A stretch of DNA of 64,000 nt from Naegleria gruberi (Eukaryota), in assembly GCA_000004985.1 (NCBI GenBank), contig GG738891.1; one strand, given 5' to 3'. Within the stretch, counting starts at the first letter, position 1, and each line of letters opens with the position of its first letter. Below the pieces are notes generated by a model. That model worked only from the letters and a program-made list of their open reading frames with translations, was not told the DNA's origin and ran no database searches. This document shows, one piece after another, positions 6,794-42,510 of the stretch. The position numbers were made by a program, and so were the translations under genes.

Positions 6794-6866
6794 TGCCGAC
6801 ACCAGGGATCGAACCAGGGACCTTAAGATCTTCAGTCTTACGCTCTCCCAACTGAGCTATGTCGGC
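6794..6866 (-). tRNA. tRNA-Phe (GAA)
   Basis: The minus strand reads GCCGACATAGCTCAGTTGGGAGAGCGTAAGACTGAAGATCTTAAGGTCCCTGGTTCGATCCCTGGTGTCGGCA. The 7-bp acceptor stem is perfect, the anticodon loop is CTGAAGA and the T-loop is TTCGATC. There is one T:T mismatch in the T-stem. A TTTTT terminator follows. Confidence 0.9.
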
Positions 6867-6978: not shown

Positions 6979-9342
6979 TTAATAAAATGGTTCCCCTCCA
7001 TTATAAACGTCCAAATATTCGATTCCCTCGAACTGTCTAAATCTGAAGTAATGAGCACCTGCAACTGATTGAATTAGGGCAGGATCCATCTCACTTGAAA
7101 CTATTGAGGCATCAGGAATCATTTCTGATGTTACCCTTTCAACAATCTCTTTCAGTTTTGGAATGTTAAAAGTACCTCCGGAAAGGATAACATGCTTAAT
7201 CTTTGGTACTCTTCCATATGGCGAAGGAATCATTCCCTCTGTGATGGATTCTCTTAGTAACTTCTCAAAGTTTGCAAATTCGTTTTCACATAGAGTGTAA
7301 AATTCATCCCTTGTAACTGTAACAGAAGATCCATTTGAAAGTTCTACGATTGTGGAATTATTGATAGAAAGGGAACCCTTTACCTTTTCACATTGCTTAA
7401 GATCGATTGAGGAGCTGTGCTTTTCTTCCAAATGCTTCAATAAAATGAAACTGAAATCCTTTCCATTACAGCATTCCAAAAACTTTTCAAATATAAGATG
7501 ACTGTAGTAGTATTGAGAAACCTCACTGATATTGACTACTGGCTTACTACTTGACCAATTAACCACTAGACAATCACTGCCCATAATTGATTGGATGAAT
7601 GCATAAGGTATAATTTCTCTTCCATCCTCACAACATTGCAAGACTGACAATCCACAAGCTTTAGCAGATTCTACAACTAGATATTTATCCTCTGTTGGGA
7701 CTAGTAATTGTACAATTTTGGTTGAGAAGTATTTCACATTACCATCAAGATTGATCCGATCACTTGCATAGCTTGTCTCCATGTGTTGTTTGAATTCTCT
7801 GAATAATTCCTTCATTCTTTCACTGTTCGAATAAATATTTTCATCATTCGTTTGAATAACTTTTGCTGTTACTCCAACTGAATTACTAATTGAAATTGAA
7901 GCTTTCCATCGAGTTCTTCCACAATCAATTGACCAAGGAGCATGATTAAATTTACATCTGGAAATGATATTGTCTCTAATAGCTTGATCTCTTAAAGTAG
8001 TAATTGCCCATGAAATAACAGGTTGAATTCCATCCAATTCAGGATTGTAATCAACTCCCATAAATCCAGAAATGTAATGAAACTCTTTCCACTTTTGATG
8101 ATTCAACACCTCGACACTTGTTGCCGTAATTGGATTAGGGAAGCATCCAATTTCAAAAGCCTCTCTCCATCTGAAAACTTTTGCAAGTTTCTCAACTTCA
8201 GACTCTCCAGTTTCTTCAAACAAGTAGCCCTGAGAGAAATCATCAGTATATGGTTCATTTTCAGCAAATTTAGAATCCATCTCGATAAATTTCTGTAAAT
8301 GGTATGAAACTCTGTTCTCTTTATCATATGGGAAGAAGTAATTGATCCATCCAGAAATGAAATCAAAGCCACTGCTAGAATCAAAGAGAGCAATACCATT
8401 CCAAAATGTTTTCAACTCTTCAGTGAGAGTTTCTTCTTGGGCTGTTTTGATAATCCTATCAAGAATGAGTGTCAAAACCTTTCTCCACCAAGCCATATCA
8501 TATTCGTCAAGGAGTTTGAGCTTCTCTCTCATTCCCAACCAGTCATCCATAGTTCCCAAAATTGTAACACTTGGAAGACCACATAAGAAATCATTCTTAT
8601 ACGAATAAAAATCCTTAAAAGCTTCCATCAACAACATTTTCGAGGCAACTTTCTCAACTTGGGTAGAAGTTGAAAAGTTGTGATCTATAAAGTCCATCAA
8701 TTTGATTTTTCTCTCATCTCCCTTATGGGATGAAACATCATTTACAATTGCCTGATGAATTTCATTCACAACTCCCTCCCAATTAATCTCAGCACTCACT
8801 GGATCAATATATTGAGGCATAGCAACAACAATATCCATCTTGTTTTGCTTTTCTTCAGCATTGCCAATCAATTCAGGTCTCAAAGCCAAATGCTTTACCA
8901 ATCCCTGTGTAATCATCATCCAAATGTGATCAGGACTCACAATCAATGGATAATGTTCACTGTAAGCAGTACAATAACAAGCAACAACAGGATGAGGTCT
9001 CACCAATAGATTCTTCAATGCATAGACATTATCGGGTGAGTGTATGACACTGTAACGGGATCGAATTAAATCCTGATCAACTTTATCTCCCTTCTCAATG
9101 GTATTAGTAAATAATTGATTTAATAAAACTCTTTCAGAAGGCTGACTGTAGAGTTTGCCAATTTCATAGGGTTTGGCTTCTTCTTGTTCATCCTCATCAA
9201 TCGGATGCTTCTTCTTTGGAGTCCATGATGAAGCATAGAAGGGAGTAAAATCCCTCTTACAAAGAACCTTCATGTTGCGCAATTTTTTTGGAATTGTTCC
9301 ATCTTGTTCCTTAACAACAATATCTTTGATATCTGCTTCCAA
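6979..9342 (-). CDS. DUF4419-like domain protein with C-terminal actin/Hsp70-like ATPase-like region (787-aa ORF)
   Basis: This is a single long ORF. The N-terminal half carries the motif I associate with DUF4419 (HPVVACYCTAYSEHYPLIVSPDHIWMMITQGLVKHLALRPE). The C-terminal third has Hsp70/actin-fold-like motifs (WSIDCGRTRWKASI; VILSGGTFNIPKLKEIVERV; QSVAGAHY). The ORF-track start at 9342 is TTG, and the first in-frame ATG is at 9273. Confidence 0.6.
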   Translation of the reverse strand: MEADIKDIVVKEQDGTIPKKLRNMKVLCKRDFTPFYASSWTPKKKHPIDEDEQEEAKPYEIGKLYSQPSERVLLNQLFTNTIEKGDKVDQDLIRSRYSVIHSPDNVYALKNLLVRPHPVVACYCTAYSEHYPLIVSPDHIWMMITQGLVKHLALRPELIGNAEEKQNKMDIVVAMPQYIDPVSAEINWEGVVNEIHQAIVNDVSSHKGDERKIKLMDFIDHNFSTSTQVEKVASKMLLMEAFKDFYSYKNDFLCGLPSVTILGTMDDWLGMREKLKLLDEYDMAWWRKVLTLILDRIIKTAQEETLTEELKTFWNGIALFDSSSGFDFISGWINYFFPYDKENRVSYHLQKFIEMDSKFAENEPYTDDFSQGYLFEETGESEVEKLAKVFRWREAFEIGCFPNPITATSVEVLNHQKWKEFHYISGFMGVDYNPELDGIQPVISWAITTLRDQAIRDNIISRCKFNHAPWSIDCGRTRWKASISISNSVGVTAKVIQTNDENIYSNSERMKELFREFKQHMETSYASDRINLDGNVKYFSTKIVQLLVPTEDKYLVVESAKACGLSVLQCCEDGREIIPYAFIQSIMGSDCLVVNWSSSKPVVNISEVSQYYYSHLIFEKFLECCNGKDFSFILLKHLEEKHSSSIDLKQCEKVKGSLSINNSTIVELSNGSSVTVTRDEFYTLCENEFANFEKLLRESITEGMIPSPYGRVPKIKHVILSGGTFNIPKLKEIVERVTSEMIPDASIVSSEMDPALIQSVAGAHYFRFRQFEGIEYLDVYNGGEPFY

Positions 9343-15657: not shown

Positions 15658-15728
15658 TCGGGTGTGGTATAGTGGTAGCATTCCAGACTGTCACTCTGGC
15701 GACCCGGGTTCAATTCCCGGCACTCGAG
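15658..15728 (+). tRNA. tRNA-Asp (GUC)
   Basis: The sequence is TCGGGTGTGGTATAGTGGTAGCATTCCAGACTGTCACTCTGGCGACCCGGGTTCAATTCCCGGCACTCGAG. The acceptor stem pairs TCGGGTG with CACTCGA, the anticodon stem is CCAGA/TCTGG with loop CTGTCAC, and the T-arm is CCGGG-TTCAATT-CCCGG. A T-run lies shortly downstream. Confidence 0.9.
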
Positions 15729-16358: not shown

Positions 16359-16753
16359 ATGAAAAAACTATCAATAACAAGCAAACTATTTACAAAGAAG
16401 TGGAAATTTTCCCAAAATCAAGTTCGATTTGTTCAAGTAAGTTTCAAACCCCAAATTAATTCACACAATAATCTCTGTTTTTGACAATGAAACTCACACA
16501 GACCGCATTGGTCACTGAGGAGGGAGATCGATTTGAACAGGAGGTTCAAAAAACACTCAAGGGAGATGTTGCCAAAACCATAATTGACTATCAAGGATGG
16601 AATGAAACTTTAGGATCATCCAGTGAGGCAATCGTTAAAGCAGAACGTTCAGAACAATTGAATGGACCAACGATGGAAGACCTTCAAAAACAAACCATTG
16701 AATTTCTTCATGAGAGAGAGGATAAGAAACAATATCCATTCGATAAAGAATAA
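16359..16753 (+). CDS. small hypothetical protein, basic presequence-like N-terminus (2 exons, ~110 aa)
   Basis: Exon 1 is 16359..16436 (MKKLSITSKLFTKKWKFSQNQVRFVQ). The intron is 16437..16501 (GTAAGT..CAG, phase 0). Exon 2 is 16502..16753. This is a hand-built model only. Confidence 0.35.
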
Positions 16754-16932: not shown

Positions 16933-17281
16933 TTAGTTGATTTTGTGACCATTAACTGAAATGTTACCATACTTGTAAATAATGACAAACAGAATAATGA
17001 AAGTAACGATACTACATGCAAGGAAACAGAAAAACAATCCCAAACCAATAGCTCCAAACTATTACAATTTCAAATTCTGATCTACTTACTTTTCTTCCTC
17101 TACTGCTATACTTGGTACGATTTCTTGTAATGAAAAAGAGAACAATCCAAATGATTGGCAAACAAAATCCACCCAAGAATAACAAAAAGGCCATGTCATC
17201 ATTCTTGTTCATTTCAGAATTTTCATTTGGCATGAGTATTTCATTTGGTCTATTTTCTGTGAGTGAATGCTGAGTTTTCAA
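16933..17281 (-). CDS. small two-TM membrane protein (model depends on a 31-nt intron)
   Basis: Exon 1 is 17090..17281 and ends ..YSSRGRK. Removing 17059..17089 (GTAAGT..ATAG) continues the frame as FGAIGLGLFFCFLACSIVTFIILFVIIYKYGNISVNGHKIN, with a stop at 16933. The unspliced ORF instead ends at 17012. Confidence 0.3.
17038..17062. repeat. 25-nt local repeat, copy A (partner 17828..17852, 24/25 identical)
   Basis: TCCCAAACCAATAGCTCCA[A/C]ACTAT occurs twice in direct orientation. In copy A it spans the proposed intron acceptor and exon-2 start of the small TM gene. Confidence 0.8.
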
Positions 17282-17559
17282 TTGCTTACTTACTGGTAAT
17301 TGGTTTGAGAAGGGTAACCATTATTGTGAACGAGTTGATCTTGCATTCGATAAATATATTTGTTTTCTATTCAAATTTGAGTTTCTACCAGTGATTAGTT
17401 TTTTTCTGATAATTGTTTCTCAAACAGAGTGAATCAAACACTTGTAGTCAATTTTGGCCATAAAACAAGTAACCCTTACAGTCAACATATTGGCATTAGA
17501 TTTCAATGTGCTGCTCTTTCTTCCTTTTTACCTTGTGTAATCGTGATACATAATTATTG

Positions 17560-17581
17560 GAATGTTATTGGAAGGTTACAT
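17560..17581. repeat. 22-nt direct repeat, left copy (partner 18133..18154, 21/22 identical)
   Basis: GAATGTT[A/T]TTGGAAGGTTACAT occurs at both positions. The two copies flank the segment that contains the RGS-gene fragment. Confidence 0.8.
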
Positions 17582-17640
17582 GAATTCACAGTATTCAAAC
17601 TCTAATTCTGAAGAGATTTGAAGTTGGCGATTTCACAAAT

Positions 17641-17793
17641 AGAGACCAATCGAGAGAGTAACACCAATTCTTATACTGATGAGAGTACATGAATCTTGGA
17701 ATAATATCACTCTTAATCATATGAAGAATGATCGAGTGAGCCTCATCGAACACGTCCATTGTTAAAACCGACAAGATATTAGAGGTCGCATGT
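17641..17793 (-). pseudogene. inverted duplicated fragment of the RGS-domain gene (copy of 21780..21932)
   Basis: By-eye alignment gives about 8 mismatches in ~152 nt against the reverse complement of 21780..21932. On the minus strand it reads TSNILSVLTMDVFDEAHSIILHMIKSDIIPRFMYSHQYKNWCYSLDWS. The parent gene reads TSNILSVLTIDVFDEAHSIILHMIKSDIIPRFMYSHQYKNWSYSLDWS. Confidence 0.8.
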
Positions 17794-17827
17794 CACGCTT
17801 CATAGTATTGTTGTGAACTTTGAAAAT

Positions 17828-17852
17828 TCCCAAACCAATAGCTCCACACTAT
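17828..17852. repeat. 25-nt local repeat, copy B (partner 17038..17062)
   Basis: On the minus strand it is preceded by a GTAAGT...ATAG intron-like 51-nt segment, mirroring the structure at copy A. The downstream frame (CGAIGLGIF..) is truncated. Confidence 0.7.
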
Positions 17853-18132
17853 ATCAATAATTCATTAATTAATCATATTCAACATCTTTAACAACTTACC
17901 TCTATCACCAGTCAATAAGGCATTTTGTCTTAACATTTGTTATAGTTTCGAAATTGCAGCAATCATCTGATACGTTTCCATAATGAGCATGTTAATATAT
18001 AGATCAGTACTTAAATGCTGACACTTGGTTAGGATAACAAATAGATTCCTTTTCAATTTTACAAATAAGGGATTGTAAAAATTATGTCATAACACCTATA
18101 GTCTATTATAGCACAGATTTGCTTTCTGACTA

Positions 18133-18154
18133 GAATGTTTTTGGAAGGTTACAT
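18133..18154. repeat. 22-nt direct repeat, right copy (partner 17560..17581)
   Basis: The sequence is GAATGTTTTTGGAAGGTTACAT. Confidence 0.8.
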
Positions 18155-18424
18155 ACTTCTCCAGTGCTTTGAACCCTTGCTCTCAGTGTATTCATAATAT
18201 TCTTGTTATTAATTTCAACATTTAGTGAGCTGGTTAAACTTTTCATCAAAGAGGGGTAGAGCAGTACTTATTAATGAATATAGGTCAATACTATTTGTTA
18301 ATATTGAATCAAGAAAAGCATTGAAAATATTGTGGACTAAACCAAACTTTTGTTTACAAAAAATCAATCTGATCCTCTTTACTTATACAAATTGAATTAT
18401 TTGTACTTGTATATTATACATCAA

Positions 18425-19051
18425 TTATTCCTTAGTAAATTTACCATAAATAACTTTGGCATCATTGAAATCATCAACAACAACCTTTGAAGTAACATGC
18501 TTAACACCATCCTTTTCAACTTCTCTATATTTCAATGAACCTCTAATAGAGACAATGACACCCTTCTTGAAGAATTTAGTGGCAACCTTTGCCAAAACTG
18601 GATTGAAGGAAACTACACTGTGGAATGTAGATTGTTCTTCAATATTTTCACCCTTCTTAATTCTCTCCGAGGTAACAACAGTCAAACCAGTAAAAGTTCC
18701 ACCATTTGCAATTTCCTTTATAACAGCATCAGAAGCAAGAGTACCAATAAGATGAACAGAATTGACTGATCCTCTAATTTGGAAAGTTTGTCCTTCTTCT
18801 TGAGAAGGTGCTGGCTTTGAAGATACATTTGTCTTTTTGTATGAAGAATTTGATGATGATGAATAAGAAGGAGTATCACTATTTGATGATGAAGAGGATG
18901 AAGTTGTTGTTGTTGGTTTAACGCTCACTCTTCTGGTAACATCGGAGAGGGTTTGGCTTGTGTGATAGGAACAAGCAGAAGAAGCGAATTGATGGTGGTG
19001 GTGATACAAGGCTGAAGATCTGTTGCCAATAATTGAAATTCTCTTTAACAT
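18425..19051 (-). CDS. mitochondrial single-stranded DNA-binding protein (SSB, OB-fold)
   Basis: The C-terminal ~115 aa match the SSB pattern (VNSVHLIGTLASDAVIKEI..GGTFTGLTVVTSE......EEQSTFHSVVSFNPVLAKVATKFFKKGVIVSIRGSLKYRE). The N-terminus is presequence-like (MLKRISIIGNRSS), followed by an S/T-rich linker. Confidence 0.7.
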   Translation of the reverse strand: MLKRISIIGNRSSALYHHHHQFASSACSYHTSQTLSDVTRRVSVKPTTTTSSSSSSNSDTPSYSSSSNSSYKKTNVSSKPAPSQEEGQTFQIRGSVNSVHLIGTLASDAVIKEIANGGTFTGLTVVTSERIKKGENIEEQSTFHSVVSFNPVLAKVATKFFKKGVIVSIRGSLKYREVEKDGVKHVTSKVVVDDFNDAKVIYGKFTKE

Positions 19052-19379: not shown

Positions 19380-20463
19380 ATGGGCAACGTGAACAAGCAA
19401 TTGGATCGTCATCAATTGTTTGATATTCAAAAGAGAACAACCTGTAGGTAGAAGAATTATTGTTACTTTAAATGTATCTAATTTATTGTTGCTCCTATCA
19501 TGATCTTTTGGATTTTTAAATTCCGATACTTGTTCATGAATTATAATAATATTAATTTTAATAATGGGAATTTAATCATGATAATTTAATTTGGATAATA
19601 TGATAATAGTATCGGCAAAGGAAATTAAGGAATGGTACTCGTTGTTTATGAAACAATTTCAAGATACCAAAGTTTCAAAGGATAAATACTTGCCAAGCCT
19701 AAAGATTCATAGTTTACCATCGAGTTATGAAAATACGACAACAATAATCACAACAACATCTCCATCTTTGAATAATAGTAATACTAATGGAAATAATTCA
19801 TCTTTAAATAATCAACAATTGGATTCTAATGAAATTAGTGATAAACAAGTAGAAATTGAAATTGTTGATAAGAAGGAAATGACAACGTCGACAGCACCAA
19901 ATCATGAAAAACAAGAACCAAAGAAATTGACAGATCTTACCTATCCAGAATTAATTTATGATACAACCCACTTGTCATTTCTCAAATATTTCTATTCGGA
20001 AGATTATCCAGGATCAAATTATAGGAAGAGTCAGTTACAGTTCGTACATTTCATACCATCGTATGAAATTTATTTGAAAGGTAATAGAGTATCACAAGCA
20101 GATTGGACCTATACAGCCATAACAAGCCAGAAGAGGATGGAAGATACAGAACCAGAAAAGAAGAAGAAGCATACACCATTTTCCATCTCCTTTCATGACT
20201 TGTCTGTATTCTTTGAAGTTATCTATGGATATCTTCAACTGAGGCCTTTCGAAATTGGAAAGCTGCCCAAACACCTGCACAGTCCAGAAGCATGTACAAG
20301 ATATGTTTTTCAAAATGTATTGAATTTTGTTGGAATTGATACTGATAATTTGGAAAACAAAGCAATCTCCAAACAACAATTTATGGATTATTGTTTTCAT
20401 AAATTGAGTCAAGAAAGTACTCAAGTATTGGAACAGTCGTCTCAAACCAACCTTGTCAATTAA
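19380..20463 (+). CDS. hypothetical protein with N-myristoylation-type, NCS-like N-terminus (2 exons)
   Basis: Exon 1 is 19380..19443 (MGNVNKQLDRHQLFDIQKRTT, phase 1). The intron is 19444..19609 (GTAGGT..ATAG). Exon 2 is 19610..20463 and continues LSAKEIKEWYSLFMKQF. The rest of the protein has no domain I recognise. Confidence 0.5.
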
Positions 20464-20656: not shown

Positions 20657-22236
20657 ATGGTGAATGGAATCTTTAATAGTGGCAGAGCATCTGTCGATTT
20701 TAATTACCGTCCTGGTATGCATCGGTTTGCAGATCCTTCAATGACCAGTGACAGAATAATGCTAGGAAGAAGTCCAGGAGCTGGTTTCGGAGGCATGTAT
20801 TTAATGTCAGGTACATCAGAAATTTCTGCTTTAACAACACCTTCACAATCCACAAAAACATCTTTTGATTCGATTGGAAAAATTTGGATTAATTTAATTG
20901 AAGCAAGAAAACTTTTGGCAGCTGACGTGAATGGAACCTCAGATCCTGTAAGTTTTTGTGTATTTCATATTTAATTTTACAAATTTGATATAGTATGCTG
21001 TTATATTGTGTAGGTGTTATGAATTTTAAATTGAGTTTAATAATAATGAAAGTTGGTGATATTCAAAAAAAGTCACGTGTCATGTACCATAATTTAGATC
21101 CAATTTGGAAGGAAGAATTTTATTTTGATATTTGTGAAACGAATGAAAGTTTAAAGATTTATATTATGGATAGTGATACAATTGGTTCAGATGATTTTTT
21201 AGGATTGGTTGAAGTGCCAATCAAGTCAATTGTTGAATCAAAAAATGATTTAATAGACAAGTGGTATAAATTGAAATCTACTTCAGTAAGTTTACAATTT
21301 TTCAAATCAAATGAAAATTAACTTTCTCAGTTGACTACTCGAGTAACAGGTGAACTTCATTTGCAACTCAAATTTTTACCAAACAATGCACGTCAAGCCA
21401 TAATGTCACCAATCACGCCAATTCCAACTTATTCGGATACTGATTTATCCAGTGAACGATCCACCGATTATATGGAACAAGTAGATGATCTGGGAGCCAA
21501 TTTTTCAATGAATACTGAAAAAATGTTGAGTGACATTCATTCAGCTCGTTATTTACATTCATTTATGAAGGAGCAATTTTGTGAGGAATGTTTGGAATTC
21601 ATTTATGCAGTGGAACAATTTAGGAAAATTTATAAAAATCGACAAGTGGATCCAAAAGAATTGAAGAAGGTTGCATTTGTAGTTTATGAGAGATTTTTAC
21701 AATTTGGAAGTCCACAGGAGGTTGCAATTCCGTTCATGATTAGAGTAGAGCTACAGGACTTTTTTGAGAACAAATTGGAAGATGAGACGTCTAATATATT
21801 GTCGGTTTTAACAATTGACGTGTTCGATGAGGCTCACTCGATCATTCTTCACATGATTAAGAGTGACATTATTCCAAGATTCATGTACTCTCATCAGTAT
21901 AAGAATTGGAGTTACTCTCTCGATTGGTCTCTCCAATTCCGAATGATGGAAGAAAAGAGGAGAAAGCAAAGTTTGACCTATCTCATTGAAATGATGGATG
22001 AGAAGAGTTTGCAATTTTTAAAGAAGAGAATTATTGAGAGACAAAAGAAAAAGAATTCCTCCAATAGTACTTCTTGTAATTCTGCATTTGATGATTGTGA
22101 TTCGGATGAGGAAGGAATTTTGGAAGAATTGAATTTGAGTGATTTCAAATCAACTAAATTTTCCTCAACCCAACAAGCTCAACAGGGCCAACAACAACCA
22201 ACAATTGATATGGGAGAGTTTGTTTTAACCTTGTAA
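20657..22236 (+). CDS. C2 domain + RGS domain protein (4 exons including a 16-nt micro-exon)
   Basis: Exons are 20657..20947, 20994..21009, 21053..21285 and 21331..22236. Introns are 46, 43 and 45 nt (GTAAGT..TAG, GTAGGT..AAG, GTAAGT..CAG). The joined C2 sequence is IWINLIEARKLLAADVNGTSDP-YAVIL-FGDIQKKSRVMYHNLDPIWKEEFYF. The RGS domain is YLHSFMKEQFCEECLEFIYAVEQFRKIY...IIPRFMYSHQYKNW. Confidence 0.7.
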
Positions 22237-22382
22237 ATAATAAATAAGCTCACAGAATTTGATTTATTTCCCTTTTTTCACTTTTTTCATTAATAATCAG
22301 GATGTTGGTTGCGTGCTGGTATCGTTTGGGTTAACGGAATGGTCAAATGTCTGGTCAAGGTAAAGAGCATTTATACTCAGGT

Positions 22383-23482
22383 TTAACAGTATCTAATGTC
22401 ATCCTCATCTTTTTCATAGACAAGTACTTCATAAATCAACGTTTTCAACTTGGGAGCTAGTGCTAATTTAATTTTCTCAATGTGATCTTCTTTAAAAATT
22501 GTTCCATCCAAGTCCAATGTTGTCAAGCTCTTCATGAGACATATAACTTGTAAATCCAATTCTGGATCACTGCCAATCTGTGAACATCCCCTCAATGACA
22601 AACAGCTTAATTGACTCAATTTGGCGAGTTGTACTAAAGAATCATGAGTTATTGATCCATTACATCCCAGGTTTAGTGAGGTCAATTTTGGCAGCTTTTC
22701 ACAAATTACTTTAACTTCCGAATCTCCAATCCAGGTACTTCCAAGGTCAAGGCTTGTGAGATTTCTCAATTTTGAGCAGACAAATGAAAGCAAATCCTTG
22801 TTCATATTTGATAGTCCAATATCAAGAGATTGTAAATCTGTTAAAGCGCAAATATTTCTTATATCACCATGGTTGATTTCAGTACGACACAATCCAAGAG
22901 ATTTCAGTTGTTTCATTGAGCTGATTATTGTTGTGCCAACATTTCCAACTTTGGTATGTCTCATGTTTAATTCAGTTAAATTTTCCAAGTTTTGTATGTA
23001 TTTCAAGTTCCTTGGATTTATACTACAAACTTCCAATGTTAAGGAGTGTAAAAGTTTCATATTTTGGCAGAAACTCATTCCCTTTTCATCTATTGAAGCT
23101 CCATACAGAGACAAACTTGTTAATTTATCCTTCAAACAATCACTCAATATCTTAAAATAACTACTATCAACAGTAACAAGCCAATTACTTCCAATTCCAT
23201 CATAATGATAGGCAAATGATGTGATATTTGCATGTTGCTGCAATCAAGAGAAAGAATTTCTTGAAATGGTTCAAAATAGAACGATTTCACCTTCAAATGA
23301 ATAGGAAATTGTCTAATTGCCACCAAATACCACTGTTTTGATACGAGAGAATACCTCTCCATCACTTCTTTTCTATCCAAAAATTTTAATATTTCATAAC
23401 AAATATCATCGGGTATGATCGGTGCCTCACTACTTTCAAACTTCTTTACAGGAGGAGAGGCAGATAACCCTTGCTTGTCCAT
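22383..23482 (-). CDS. F-box / leucine-rich-repeat protein (2 exons)
   Basis: Exon 1 is 23291..23482 (F-box-like IIPDDICYEILKFLDRKEVMERYSLVSKQWYLVA). The intron is 23238..23290 (53 nt, GTGAAA..CAG, phase 0). Exon 2 is 22383..23237 and carries cysteine-containing LRRs (LTSLDLGSTWIGD, LTSLNLGCNGSITHDSL, LSCLSLRGCSQIG). Confidence 0.7.
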
Positions 23483-41558: not shown

Positions 41559-41750
41559 TTTTTTATTTTGTTGATTTCTACGCTGTTTGTTTTCGAAATT
41601 GAAGTTGAGATGCTGAAAGTTCTTTGATAATGAAAAACAAACAAGAGTACTAAGTTACAAAAAAGGAAAACTTAAAAGGAAAGGGGACCAGTGGGAATCG
41701 AACCCACGGCCTCTCGCACCCAAAGCGAGAATCATACCACTAATTTTTAT

Positions 41751-41825
41751 GAAAGGGATTTGTGAAGAAGGGATCTGTGAGGAAGGGATCCGTTACAAAA
41801 GGGATTCATTGAGAATGTGTTAGTT
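41751..41825 (+). repeat. GGGAT-core ~16-bp tandem array 1 (4 intact + 1 degenerate unit)
   Basis: GGGAT cores lie at 41755, 41770, 41785 and 41801, followed by a GTGTTAGTT variant. The array is preceded by ATTTTTA. Confidence 0.85.
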
Positions 41826-42241
41826 ACTTTCGAATATTTAATTGAAATTTGATCTATATTAAAAAAAATTGCGGAAGGGGTAGTCTCTTTTTTGAAATTA
41901 ATAAAAATATACAATTTTGAAAATTAAAAATCAAGTTTTTTTATTGTTATTTGATGTTTGATTATTTTCTGTAAATTGATTAATTTCACATTTTCTATTA
42001 TGACAATAATGTGAATAATTAACACTTTTTGATGGTTTGTAATTTTGATTCATTTTCTTTTTTAAAATTTAATCTCATTCTAATTTTTAAAAATGTAATT
42101 GTTCATATTATTAAAATGTTATTTTTCTATTTACAATAAATTATTCTATCTCTCTTGAATATTTTTAATAATTGTAAATTTTCTAAAAAAAGGAAATAGA
42201 TAATATTCAATTAAATCCCTTCTAATTTTAAATTTTTTTTT

Positions 42242-42335
42242 GAGAAAGGGATTTGTGAGGAAGGGATTCATTGCAAAAGGGATCCGTTCTGAAAGGGATT
42301 CATTGAAAAATGGATTCATTATGGATGTGATAGTT
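42242..42335 (+). repeat. GGGAT-core ~16-bp tandem array 2 (4 intact + 2 degenerate units)
   Basis: GGGAT cores lie at 42248, 42263, 42279 and 42295. TGGAT variants lie at 42311 and 42322. The array is preceded by T9. Confidence 0.85.
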
Positions 42336-42403
42336 TCAAATTTTAATTAATAATATAAAATTAACACAATATTTATTCTATTTATATACATTTCTTTTTT
42401 TGG

Positions 42404-42510
42404 TAATGGATTTCATTGCAAAAGGGATCCGTTAAAGAAGGGATTCATTACAGAAGGGATCTGTTACAAAAGGGATTCATTGTAAACGTGTTTCATTGAG
42501 AAAGTGTTTC
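42404..42510 (+). repeat. GGGAT-core ~16-bp tandem array 3 (4 intact + 3 degenerate units), abutting the right TSD
   Basis: A TGGAT variant lies at 42407. GGGAT cores lie at 42424, 42440, 42456 and 42472, followed by CGTGTTTCATT and AAGTGTTTC variants. The array is preceded by T7. Confidence 0.85.

What the first reader, a model, noticed from the sequence alone, without database searches (positions are those of the whole stretch)
17641..17793. Inverted ~150-bp, ~95%-identical copy of an internal RGS-domain coding segment lies 4 kb upstream of its parent gene
17641..17793 on the + strand is the reverse complement of 21780..21932, which lies inside exon 4 of the C2+RGS gene. I count about 8 mismatches in ~152 nt. 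Similarity stops abruptly at 17641 (AGAGACCAATCG...). The copy keeps the reading frame, with 3 amino-acid changes against roughly 4-5 silent changes, but it is immediately preceded by an in-frame TGA. Any read-through transcript of this region made from the + strand would be antisense to the RGS mRNA. Transcripts spanning both loci could form a long hairpin. It may therefore be a source of antisense RNA or siRNA against the parent gene. Alternatively it is a recent gene-fragment capture.
Basis: seen in the sequence. Interest (0 to 1): 0.55.

Follow-up and report, generated by a model that had tools for sequence, protein, structure and literature searches.

The report
Stray inverted RGS gene fragment
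A 151-base piece of a Naegleria gruberi signalling gene (C2+RGS) was copied backwards into non-coding DNA 4 kb away, where it looks like a decaying scar of DNA repair and not a working regulator, so it is real but ordinary.

Summary
Window 17641-17791 is the reverse complement of 21782-21932: 151 nt, ungapped, 7 mismatches (95.4%), with sharp ends. It is the only dispersed repeat in the 64-kb window. The window is Naegleria gruberi. The parent segment lies in the last exon of a C2+RGS gene and covers only the last third of the RGS domain.

Six of the seven differences are private to the copy. They hit residues conserved in orthologues, and the synonymous/non-synonymous split is compatible with neutral decay. 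A TGA in the flank closes the frame.

The copy sits in non-coding DNA of a minus-strand small membrane-protein gene. It is inside the 560-nt intron 1 of one gene model, or about 290 nt upstream of the likely ancestral ATG. Expected transcription there gives RGS-sense RNA, not antisense.

Two more short local copies lie beside it: 31-36 nt of the host gene's own intron 3/exon 4 junction, 31 nt away, and a 22-nt repeat. Together they suggest one complex templated insertion, either repair filler DNA or replication template switching.

No evidence supports an siRNA or antisense role, and none of these tools can exclude it.

The parts
17641..17791 (-). Inverted 151-nt copy of the RGS coding segment. 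It reads as RGS sense on the minus strand. Copy-private substitutions are at 17788, 17784, 17775, 17757, 17721 and 17663.
21782..21932 (+). Parent segment, inside the last exon of the C2+RGS gene. It spans residues 151-201 of ORF 21331-22236, which is the last ~42 residues of the Pfam RGS match plus 9 more. Position 21867 is a parent-lineage T>C change.
20657..22236 (+). C2+RGS parent gene (N. gruberi XP_002673332 / NAEGRDRAFT_51651). It is intact and collinear with the N. lovaniensis and N. fowleri-like orthologues.
17793..17795 (-). In-frame TGA in the non-homologous flank, one codon upstream of the copy.
17595..17759 (-). 54-codon ORF (MDVFDE...RIRV*). Its ATG was created by the copy-private ATT>ATG change at 17757. 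It has no Pfam match and the exact sequence is absent from the protein collection.
17823..17858 (-). Patch P36a, a 31-36-nt copy (86-90%) of the host gene's intron 3 / exon 4 junction, including an ATAG acceptor. It lies 31 nt upstream of the RGS copy on the minus strand.
17033..17068 (-). P36b, the original of that patch. It is the 3' end of intron 3 plus the start of exon 4, encoding the conserved FGAIGLGL motif of the small TM protein.
17560..17581 (-). P22b, one of two 22-nt direct repeats (21/22 identical). It lies 59 nt downstream of the RGS copy on the minus strand.
18133..18154 (-). P22a, the second 22-nt repeat, 197 nt upstream of the gene model's exon 1.
17340..17899 (-). Intron 1 (560 nt, GTAAGT...GCAAG) of the small TM gene model P0011. 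It contains P36a, the RGS copy and P22b. The gene's other introns are 44 and 31 nt.
16933..17936 (-). Host gene, encoding a small two-TM-helix protein. Model exons are 17936-17900, 17339-17294, 17249-17090 and 17058-16933. A likely ancestral start, ATG CAA GAT CAA, is at 17347.

Best explanation
A 151-nt stretch of the last exon of the N. gruberi C2+RGS gene was copied at the DNA level, in inverted orientation, into non-coding DNA 3,990 nt upstream. The acceptor site is intron 1 or the 5' flank of a small minus-strand membrane-protein gene. I infer that this happened in one complex templated-insertion event that also copied 31-36 nt of the host gene's own intron 3/exon 4 junction, and perhaps a 22-nt piece. 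Such an event could be double-strand-break repair with mosaic filler DNA, or replication template switching of the FoSTeS/MMBIR type.

The copy has no function of its own and has since been drifting as a gene-fragment relic.

Shown here: the repeat; its derived, partial, non-coding state; its location and orientation; and the adjacent patches.

Inferred: that a single event produced all the patches, the repair or replication mechanism, and the lack of function.
For: 1. The repeat is real, ungapped and sharply bounded.

2. Its boundaries do not coincide with exon or domain ends. It covers only residues 151-201 of the exon, the last third of the RGS domain.

3. The parent gene is intact and collinear with the N. 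lovaniensis and N. fowleri-like orthologues across both arm edges. The new junctions are therefore those of the upstream copy.

4. No closer paralogue exists among database proteins. The next hits are orthologues at 47-48%.

5. Six of the 7 differences are private to the copy. I>M and S>C hit positions conserved in all orthologues. The 3 synonymous: 3 non-synonymous split is not distinguishable from neutrality (p = 0.085).

6. All three frames upstream are closed, with a TGA one codon before the copy.

7. A second local copy patch lies 31 nt away, and a third lies within 60 nt on the other side. Both are significant against shuffles. Their divergence (3-5 of 31-36 nt; 1 of 22 nt) fits the same age as the 4% copy-private divergence.

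8. There are no TIRs, poly(A) or repeated carrier element.

9. There is no unusual local RNA fold (z = -0.55 and -0.70) and no Rfam family on the copy.

10. Filler DNA copied from sites near a break, sometimes as a mosaic of several templates, is documented (PMC2686159).
Against: No empty-site allele could be found, so junction microhomology, any accompanying deletion and the single-event claim are untested.

The filler stretches between the patches show no enrichment of short local templates. There is no extended homology beyond the patches.

At 151 nt, the copy is at or above the upper end of the filler sizes quoted in PMC2686159 (1-131 bp).

The synonymous excess (3 of 6 changes, against 19% expected) leans weakly toward constraint.

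Absence of function is inferred from sequence alone, since no expression or small-RNA data were available.
Confidence: 0.7

Rival explanations
1. Endogenous RNAi trigger. Either + strand transcription across the copy gives antisense RNA to the RGS mRNA, or one long transcript carrying both arms folds into a 151-bp hairpin that is diced into siRNAs repressing the C2+RGS gene.
For: The two arms could form a duplex of -243.8 kcal/mol with perfect runs of 42, 35 and 22 bp. Naegleria encodes Dicer-like and Argonaute homologues (PMC13315211; PMC10328071). Gene fragments that make trans-acting siRNAs are known in plants (bioRxiv 10.1101/2021.06.10.447945). The RGS exon is unusually invariant between strains, though coding constraint explains that as well.
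Against: All transcription units around the copy are on the minus strand: SSB, the snoRNA-like element and the TM gene. The expected RNA is therefore RGS-sense. The nearest + strand gene upstream ends at 16753 and converges on the TM gene. A hairpin transcript would have to run 4.3 kb, antisense through the TM gene's intron 1/5' flank, the snoRNA-like element and the SSB gene. The copy accumulates changes at about the neutral rate. RNAi has not been demonstrated experimentally in Naegleria (PMC13315211).
Confidence: 0.07
2. The fragment is expressed as part of the host gene's mRNA. This would happen if the duplicated acceptor P36a is used with the exon-1 donor (a 51-nt intron), making the RGS-sense fragment part of a long 5' UTR or poison exon. 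Alternatively, the 54-codon ORF created by the ATT>ATG change might be translated.
For: The sequence GTAAGT...ATATAG|TG at 17899-17849 has the same form and size class as the gene's 31- and 44-nt introns. The model's own acceptor, GCAAG, is atypical. The spliced mini-ORF MLRQNALLTGDRVWSYWFGNFQSSQQYYEA* is in the same frame as the fragment, separated only by the TGA. The ATG at 17759-17757 is copy-derived.
Against: Stops occur in all three frames. The ORF has no Pfam match and is absent from 15 billion catalogued proteins. It covers only a third of an RGS domain, which is unlikely to fold alone. No transcript evidence is available.
Confidence: 0.1
3. The gene fragment was captured and moved by a transposable element (Pack-MULE, Helitron-like, or retroposition with template switching). 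The 22-nt direct repeats would be target-site duplications.
For: Direct 22-nt repeats (21/22 identical) bracket a 573-nt block containing the copy.
Against: There are no terminal inverted repeats, no poly(A) and no hairpin end. The repeats are not flush with any recognisable element. The block contains an intron/exon junction patch, so it is DNA-derived and not a cDNA copy. No other copy of any part of the block exists in the window. No TE protein domain is present.
Confidence: 0.05
4. The copy is a remnant of a larger inverted segmental duplication, or the footprint of an inversion breakpoint (staggered-break model), possibly kept similar by gene conversion.
For: The region is rearranged between Naegleria species. 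The SF-assemblin block is inverted relative to the RGS gene compared with N. lovaniensis. The 290-aa gene at 19591-20463 lies downstream of RGS-LRR-OTU in the N. fowleri-like contig but upstream here.
Against: Those species are about 47% identical in protein, far older than a 95%-identical repeat. The RGS gene is collinear with its orthologues through both arm edges, so the interval between the arms was not inverted relative to the gene's 3' end. No residual homology exists outside the 151 nt.
Confidence: 0.05
5. Assembly or cloning artefact, such as a chimeric read.
For: Raw reads were not available for checking.
Against: A chimera would be identical to its source. Instead the copy carries 6 private substitutions and no indels. 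At 21867 it keeps the T also seen in the independent strain contig L002, whereas the window's parent has C.
Confidence: 0.03

Closest known systems
Filler DNA / templated insertions at double-strand-break repair junctions (NHEJ, SDSA or polymerase-theta end joining; complex mosaic filler as described in maize, PMC2686159)
   Same: A short stretch is copied from an intact donor a few kb away, in either orientation. Its boundaries ignore gene features. A second patch copied from another nearby site lies next to it. The product is non-coding.
   Different: At 151 nt it is at or above the upper end of the sizes quoted there (1-131 bp). No empty-site allele was found, so microhomology and any associated deletion were not seen. 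This has not been described in Heterolobosea, to my knowledge.
Replication-based template switching (FoSTeS / MMBIR; template switching as a source of inverted copies, e.g. PMC11790251)
   Same: An inverted copy of a sequence lies within a few kb, with several local templates joined in one place.
   Different: Those models are usually invoked for kb-to-Mb copy-number changes, or for the inverted triplications of ODIRA. Here only short patches are involved and there is no copy-number change of whole genes.
Gene-fragment siRNA loci and inverted-duplication hairpin loci (Brassica/Arabidopsis siren loci, bioRxiv 10.1101/2021.06.10.447945; from my own knowledge, Drosophila hpRNA genes and young plant miRNA genes born from inverted gene duplications)
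   Same: A fragment of a protein-coding gene sits in non-coding DNA, with enough identity (perfect runs up to 42 bp) to target the parent.
   Different: There is no evidence of small RNAs, of antisense or hairpin transcription, or of the associated TE motifs. The arms are 4 kb apart with minus-strand genes between them. The copy evolves as if unconstrained.
Duplicated (non-processed) pseudogene fragments
   Same: A partial copy of a coding sequence with no start, a closed upstream frame, and derived changes at conserved residues.
   Different: It is much shorter than typical duplicated pseudogenes and is embedded in another gene's intron or 5' flank, next to a patch of that gene's own splice junction.

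Membership tests
Filler DNA / templated repair insertion | The inserted sequence is a copy of a nearby donor that itself remains intact | tested here: met
   The donor lies 3,990 nt away inside an intact ORF that is collinear with its orthologues.
Filler DNA / templated repair insertion | Boundaries are unrelated to exon, domain or mobile-element ends | tested here: met
   The copy spans residues 151-201 of a 301-codon exon and starts inside the RGS domain. No TIR or poly(A) is present.
Filler DNA / templated repair insertion | May be a mosaic of several local templates | tested here: inconclusive
   Two further significant local patches lie within 31 and 59 nt of the copy. However, the intervening filler shows no excess of local k-mers.
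Filler DNA / templated repair insertion | Junction microhomology and/or a deletion relative to the pre-insertion allele | not testable with these tools
   No empty-site allele was found. Close-strain contigs L002, L005 and L006 do not cover 16.4-18.4 kb. Further searches failed.
Endogenous hairpin / antisense siRNA locus | An inverted duplicate of the target gene with long perfect pairing | tested here: met
   151 nt at 95.4%, with perfect runs of 42, 35 and 22 bp and a duplex energy of -243.8 kcal/mol.
Endogenous hairpin / antisense siRNA locus | The fragment is transcribed antisense to the target, or both arms lie on one transcript | not testable with these tools
   No RNA data are available. 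Context is unfavourable because the flanking and host units are on the minus strand.
Endogenous hairpin / antisense siRNA locus | Small RNAs map to the arms | not testable with these tools
   No small-RNA data are accessible.
Endogenous hairpin / antisense siRNA locus | RNAi machinery is present in the organism | not tested
   This rests on literature only. Dicer-like and Argonaute homologues are reported for Naegleria, but RNAi is not demonstrated (PMC13315211).
TE-mediated gene-fragment capture (Pack-MULE / Helitron / retroposition) | Element termini (TIRs with TSD, Helitron ends, or poly(A) with TSD) bracket the captured piece | tested here: not met
   No TIRs or poly(A) were found. The only direct repeats are the 22-mers 573 nt apart, with no element features.
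TE-mediated gene-fragment capture (Pack-MULE / Helitron / retroposition) | The carrier sequence is repeated elsewhere in the genome | tested here: inconclusive
   There is no other copy in the 64-kb window. The whole genome could not be searched.
Inversion-breakpoint inverted duplication (staggered-break model) | The two inverted copies flank a segment that is inverted relative to the outside flanks | tested here: not met
   The RGS gene reads continuously through the parent arm and is collinear with its orthologues on both sides.

The most novel reading that the evidence does not exclude
The inverted fragment, with its parent 4 kb away, is a young endogenous RNAi trigger. Occasional read-through transcripts carrying both arms, or + strand antisense transcripts, would be diced into siRNAs that tune the C2+RGS gene. 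This would be a first natural hairpin or antisense siRNA locus in a heterolobosean. A second, even less likely reading is that the 151-bp inverted repeats mediate a recombinational flip of the 4-kb interval. That flip would swap the conserved C-terminal tail of the RGS protein for the 15-codon tail LFVKSPTSNLFRIRV.
Probability: 0.06. Interest if true: 0.55.

Novelty: new member of a known kind. Interest (0 to 1): 0.2.

Why it matters
As it stands, it matters little. It is one clean, datable example of a short inverted templated insertion in a protist genome, lying next to a duplicated splice acceptor inside another gene's intron or 5' flank. It could serve as a marker for strain phylogeny in the N. 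gruberi complex and as an anecdote about how break repair seeds gene fragments and cryptic splice sites. It would become interesting only if small RNAs or antisense transcripts from it were found, because RNAi has not been demonstrated in Naegleria.

Tried and rejected
1. Tandem duplication of the host gene's 5' part, with the RGS piece at the junction. The order P22-P36-RGS-P22-P36 suggested it. I rejected it because there is no homology between the units beyond the two short patches, and the P22-to-ATG intervals are less alike than shuffles (z = -2.2).

2. Patchwork of many tiny local templates. There is no k-mer enrichment in the filler.

3. Staggered-break inversion footprint. This is incompatible with the intact, collinear parent gene.

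4. TE capture. There are no termini and no repeats of a carrier.

5. Structured RNA or a known RNA family on the copy. Only a chance snoR60 hit appeared (E = 2.6), fold z-scores are about -0.6, and no SECIS element could rescue the TGA.

6. Finding the site in a close strain. Exact ORF look-ups failed. A concatenated-ORF protein search saturated at 8000 candidates and returned nothing, wasting the last search. The JGI metagenome 25-mer scan and the protein-guided scan found nothing. Contigs of the close strain (ERZ929261) stop 18 nt past the SSB stop codon. The N. gruberi NCBI records could not be fetched by the look-up of encoding contigs.

Full report
**Observation**

Three independent methods agree that window 17641-17791 (+) is the reverse complement of 21782-21932. 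These are MAFFT, the repeat finder pair I1 and blastn self-comparison. The match is 151 nt, ungapped, with 7 mismatches (95.4%, E about 1e-64).

Homology stops dead at 17641/21932. At the other end it fades within two bases of 17791/21782. In a self-comparison of the whole 64-kb window, this is the only dispersed repeat below E = 1e-4. The only other hits are tandem-like repeats at 41.7-42.5 kb.

**Organism and parent gene**

The single-exon SSB ORF at 18425-19051 (-) is 100% identical to Naegleria gruberi XP_002673393 (NAEGRDRAFT_51649), which lies on a 339-kb scaffold. The window is therefore N. gruberi.

The parent ORF, 21331-22236, carries Pfam RGS (E 2.4e-14). The preceding ORF, 20995-21321, carries Pfam C2 (E 1.8e-15). 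It belongs to XP_002673332 / NAEGRDRAFT_51651. Orthologues in N. lovaniensis and N. fowleri are 47-48% identical, and no closer paralogue turned up. The neighbouring gene is therefore the donor.

The copied stretch covers residues 151-201 of the 301-codon exon. That is the last ~42 residues of the RGS domain match (63-192) plus nine more. It is neither an exon nor a domain.

**Direction and state of the copy**

The RGS gene is collinear with its orthologues through and beyond both arm edges. The novel junctions are therefore those of the upstream copy.

A contig from an independent assembly of a close strain (L002, ENA ERZ929261) is 98.4% identical over 2,249 nt and lets the differences be polarised:
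- Six are private to the copy: GAG>GCG, ACG>ACC, ATA>ATC, ATT>ATG, CAC>CAT and AGT>TGT. Five of the six are transversions.
- The seventh (21867) is a T>C change in the window's parent. The copy and the other strain's parent both keep T.

The I>M and S>C changes hit positions that are hydrophobic or serine in all orthologues, so they are derived in the copy.

With 27.7 synonymous and 119.3 non-synonymous sites, a 3:3 split is not significantly different from neutrality (one-sided p = 0.085).

Upstream of the copy all three minus-strand frames are closed. In the RGS frame a TGA sits one codon before the homology. The ATT>ATG change happens to create a 54-codon ORF (17759-17595). That ORF has no Pfam match and is absent from the protein collection.

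**Age**

The two strains differ by about 2.5% in the SSB-upstream intergenic region and the adjacent LRR gene, but by only 1 in about 1,000 nt in the RGS gene. The copy has 6/151 = 4% private changes. That is about three times the per-lineage strain divergence, although the Poisson interval is wide. The duplication is probably as old as, or older than, the split of these strains. It is vastly younger than the Naegleria species splits. The orthologous loci L001 and L003 show a single RGS copy within the flanks that were fetched.

**Where the copy sits**

A search of 1.84 billion representative proteins with the neighbouring small ORF (17012-17281, -) showed that it belongs to a real family of small two-TM proteins. 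The search also returned P0011, a 122-aa gene model. P0011 maps exactly onto the window's minus strand as exons 17936-17900, 17339-17294, 17249-17090 and 17058-16933. Its introns are 560, 44 and 31 nt long.

The RGS copy lies inside the 560-nt intron 1, in sense orientation relative to the host gene.

The homologues start MQQDN/MHQDN, which resembles the in-frame ATG CAA GAT CAA at 17347. The model's intron 1 acceptor (GCAAG) is also atypical. The model's first exon may therefore be a 5'-UTR exon or a prediction artefact. In that case the copy lies about 290 nt upstream of the start codon.

The surrounding units are as follows:
- Upstream on the minus strand are a SNORD29-like C/D-box snoRNA candidate (18178-18254) and the SSB gene.
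- The nearest + strand unit on the low-coordinate side is a two-exon gene ending at 16753, which converges on the TM gene's stop at 16933.

Transcription through the copy is therefore expected on the minus strand. That yields RGS-sense RNA, not antisense.

**Neighbouring patches**

Thirty-one nt upstream of the copy on the minus strand, 17858-17823 repeats the host gene's own intron 3/exon 4 junction (17068-17033). The match is 28/31 or 31/36 and includes the ATAG acceptor. The exon 4 version encodes the family's conserved FGxxGxGL motif, so it is the original.

Fifty-nine nt downstream, 17581-17560 repeats 18154-18133 (21/22 identical).

Both patches are absent elsewhere in the window and are not expected in shuffles. 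In these pairs both partners are largely free to drift, and their divergences fit the age of the RGS copy.

Nothing else aligns:
- Local and global alignments between the putative 'units' are no better than shuffles.
- The filler between the patches is not enriched in local k-mers.

**Interpretation**

The simplest account is a DNA-level templated insertion. Candidate mechanisms are complex filler DNA laid down during double-strand-break repair, or replication template switching. The event used at least two, perhaps three, donors within 4 kb, and the product then decayed neutrally. Filler DNA copied from sites near a break, sometimes as a mosaic, is documented (PMC2686159).

I could not obtain an empty-site allele. 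The single-event claim and the mechanism therefore remain inference.

**Rivals**

*RNAi trigger.* The arms could form a 151-bp duplex (-243.8 kcal/mol; perfect runs of 42, 35 and 22 bp). Naegleria has Dicer-like and Argonaute homologues, although RNAi is undemonstrated there (PMC13315211). Gene-fragment siRNA loci exist in plants. However, strand context is unfavourable, the copy drifts, and no RNA data are available.

*Expression within the host mRNA.* This could occur via the duplicated acceptor, giving a 51-nt intron from the exon 1 donor. It is conceivable, but it would give a stop-riddled 5' leader.

*TE capture.* This lacks termini and a repeated carrier.

*Inversion footprint.* This is incompatible with the intact parent gene.

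*Assembly chimera.* This would not carry six private substitutions plus an ancestral allele.

*Structured RNA.* The copy region has no unusual fold on either strand and no credible Rfam match.

**Verdict**

It is most likely an inert gene-fragment relic of a local templated insertion. It is a new instance of a known kind, of low general interest unless RNA data show otherwise.

Noticed in passing
window 18178-18254 (-): Candidate C/D-box snoRNA. It has a UGAUGA C box, a guide (UAACCAGCUCACUA) nearly identical to the SNORD29 consensus, a CUGA D box and a terminal stem. It scores 25.5 bits against RF00070, below the gathering score of 48 (E = 0.019 for the 1.1-kb search). It sits between the SSB stop and the small TM gene.
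   Followed up: partly
window 20657-22236 (+): The NCBI/JGI model of the RGS gene (XP_002673332, 398 aa) joins ...VNGTSDP directly to LTTRVTGE..., skipping 20995-21321. That interval has a clear Pfam C2 hit (E 1.8e-15) and is conserved in the 478-aa N. lovaniensis orthologue. The annotation probably omits the C2 exons.
   Followed up: partly
window 16933-17936 (-): The small two-TM-helix protein gene has tiny introns (44 and 31 nt). Its annotated first exon (MLRQNALLTGDR) is unlike the MQQDN/MHQDN N-termini of the homologues, whereas an in-frame ATG CAA GAT CAA (MQDQ) at 17347 matches them. This points to either exon gain or a mis-prediction. Family members include a 323-aa protein with two units and a 1673-aa protein with six matching stretches.
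   Followed up: partly
window 21220-22240 versus 22380-23460 (L002): Between the window and a close strain, the RGS gene region has 1 difference in about 1,000 nt. The adjacent F-box/LRR gene has about 26 in about 1,000 nt, a striking local contrast in diversity.
   Followed up: no
window 4.5-27.5 kb versus L001 (N. lovaniensis) and L003 (N. fowleri-like): Synteny is heavily rearranged. The SF-assemblin and 387-aa gene block (12.1-14.2 kb) is inverted relative to the RGS gene. The 290-aa gene (19591-20463) lies downstream of RGS-LRR-OTU in L003 but immediately upstream here. The GATA/F-box and RhoGAP genes lie on the opposite side and in the opposite orientation.
   Followed up: partly
window 41744-42508: A cluster of direct, tandem-like repeats of about 70-77 nt at 77-84% identity. 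These are the only other internal repeats in the window.
   Followed up: no
window 22236-22383: The RGS gene (+) and the F-box/LRR gene (-) converge, with only about 147 nt between their stop codons. Overlapping 3' ends could give natural antisense RNA independently of the fragment.
   Followed up: no
window 16360-16753 (+), 15658-15728 (+), 6794-6866 (-): A small two-exon gene (MKKLSITSKLF...; intron GTAAGT...CACAG) encodes a charged ~110-aa protein (spliced; my estimate) that was never searched against a family library. tRNA-Asp(GTC) and tRNA-Phe(GAA) genes are also present.
   Followed up: no
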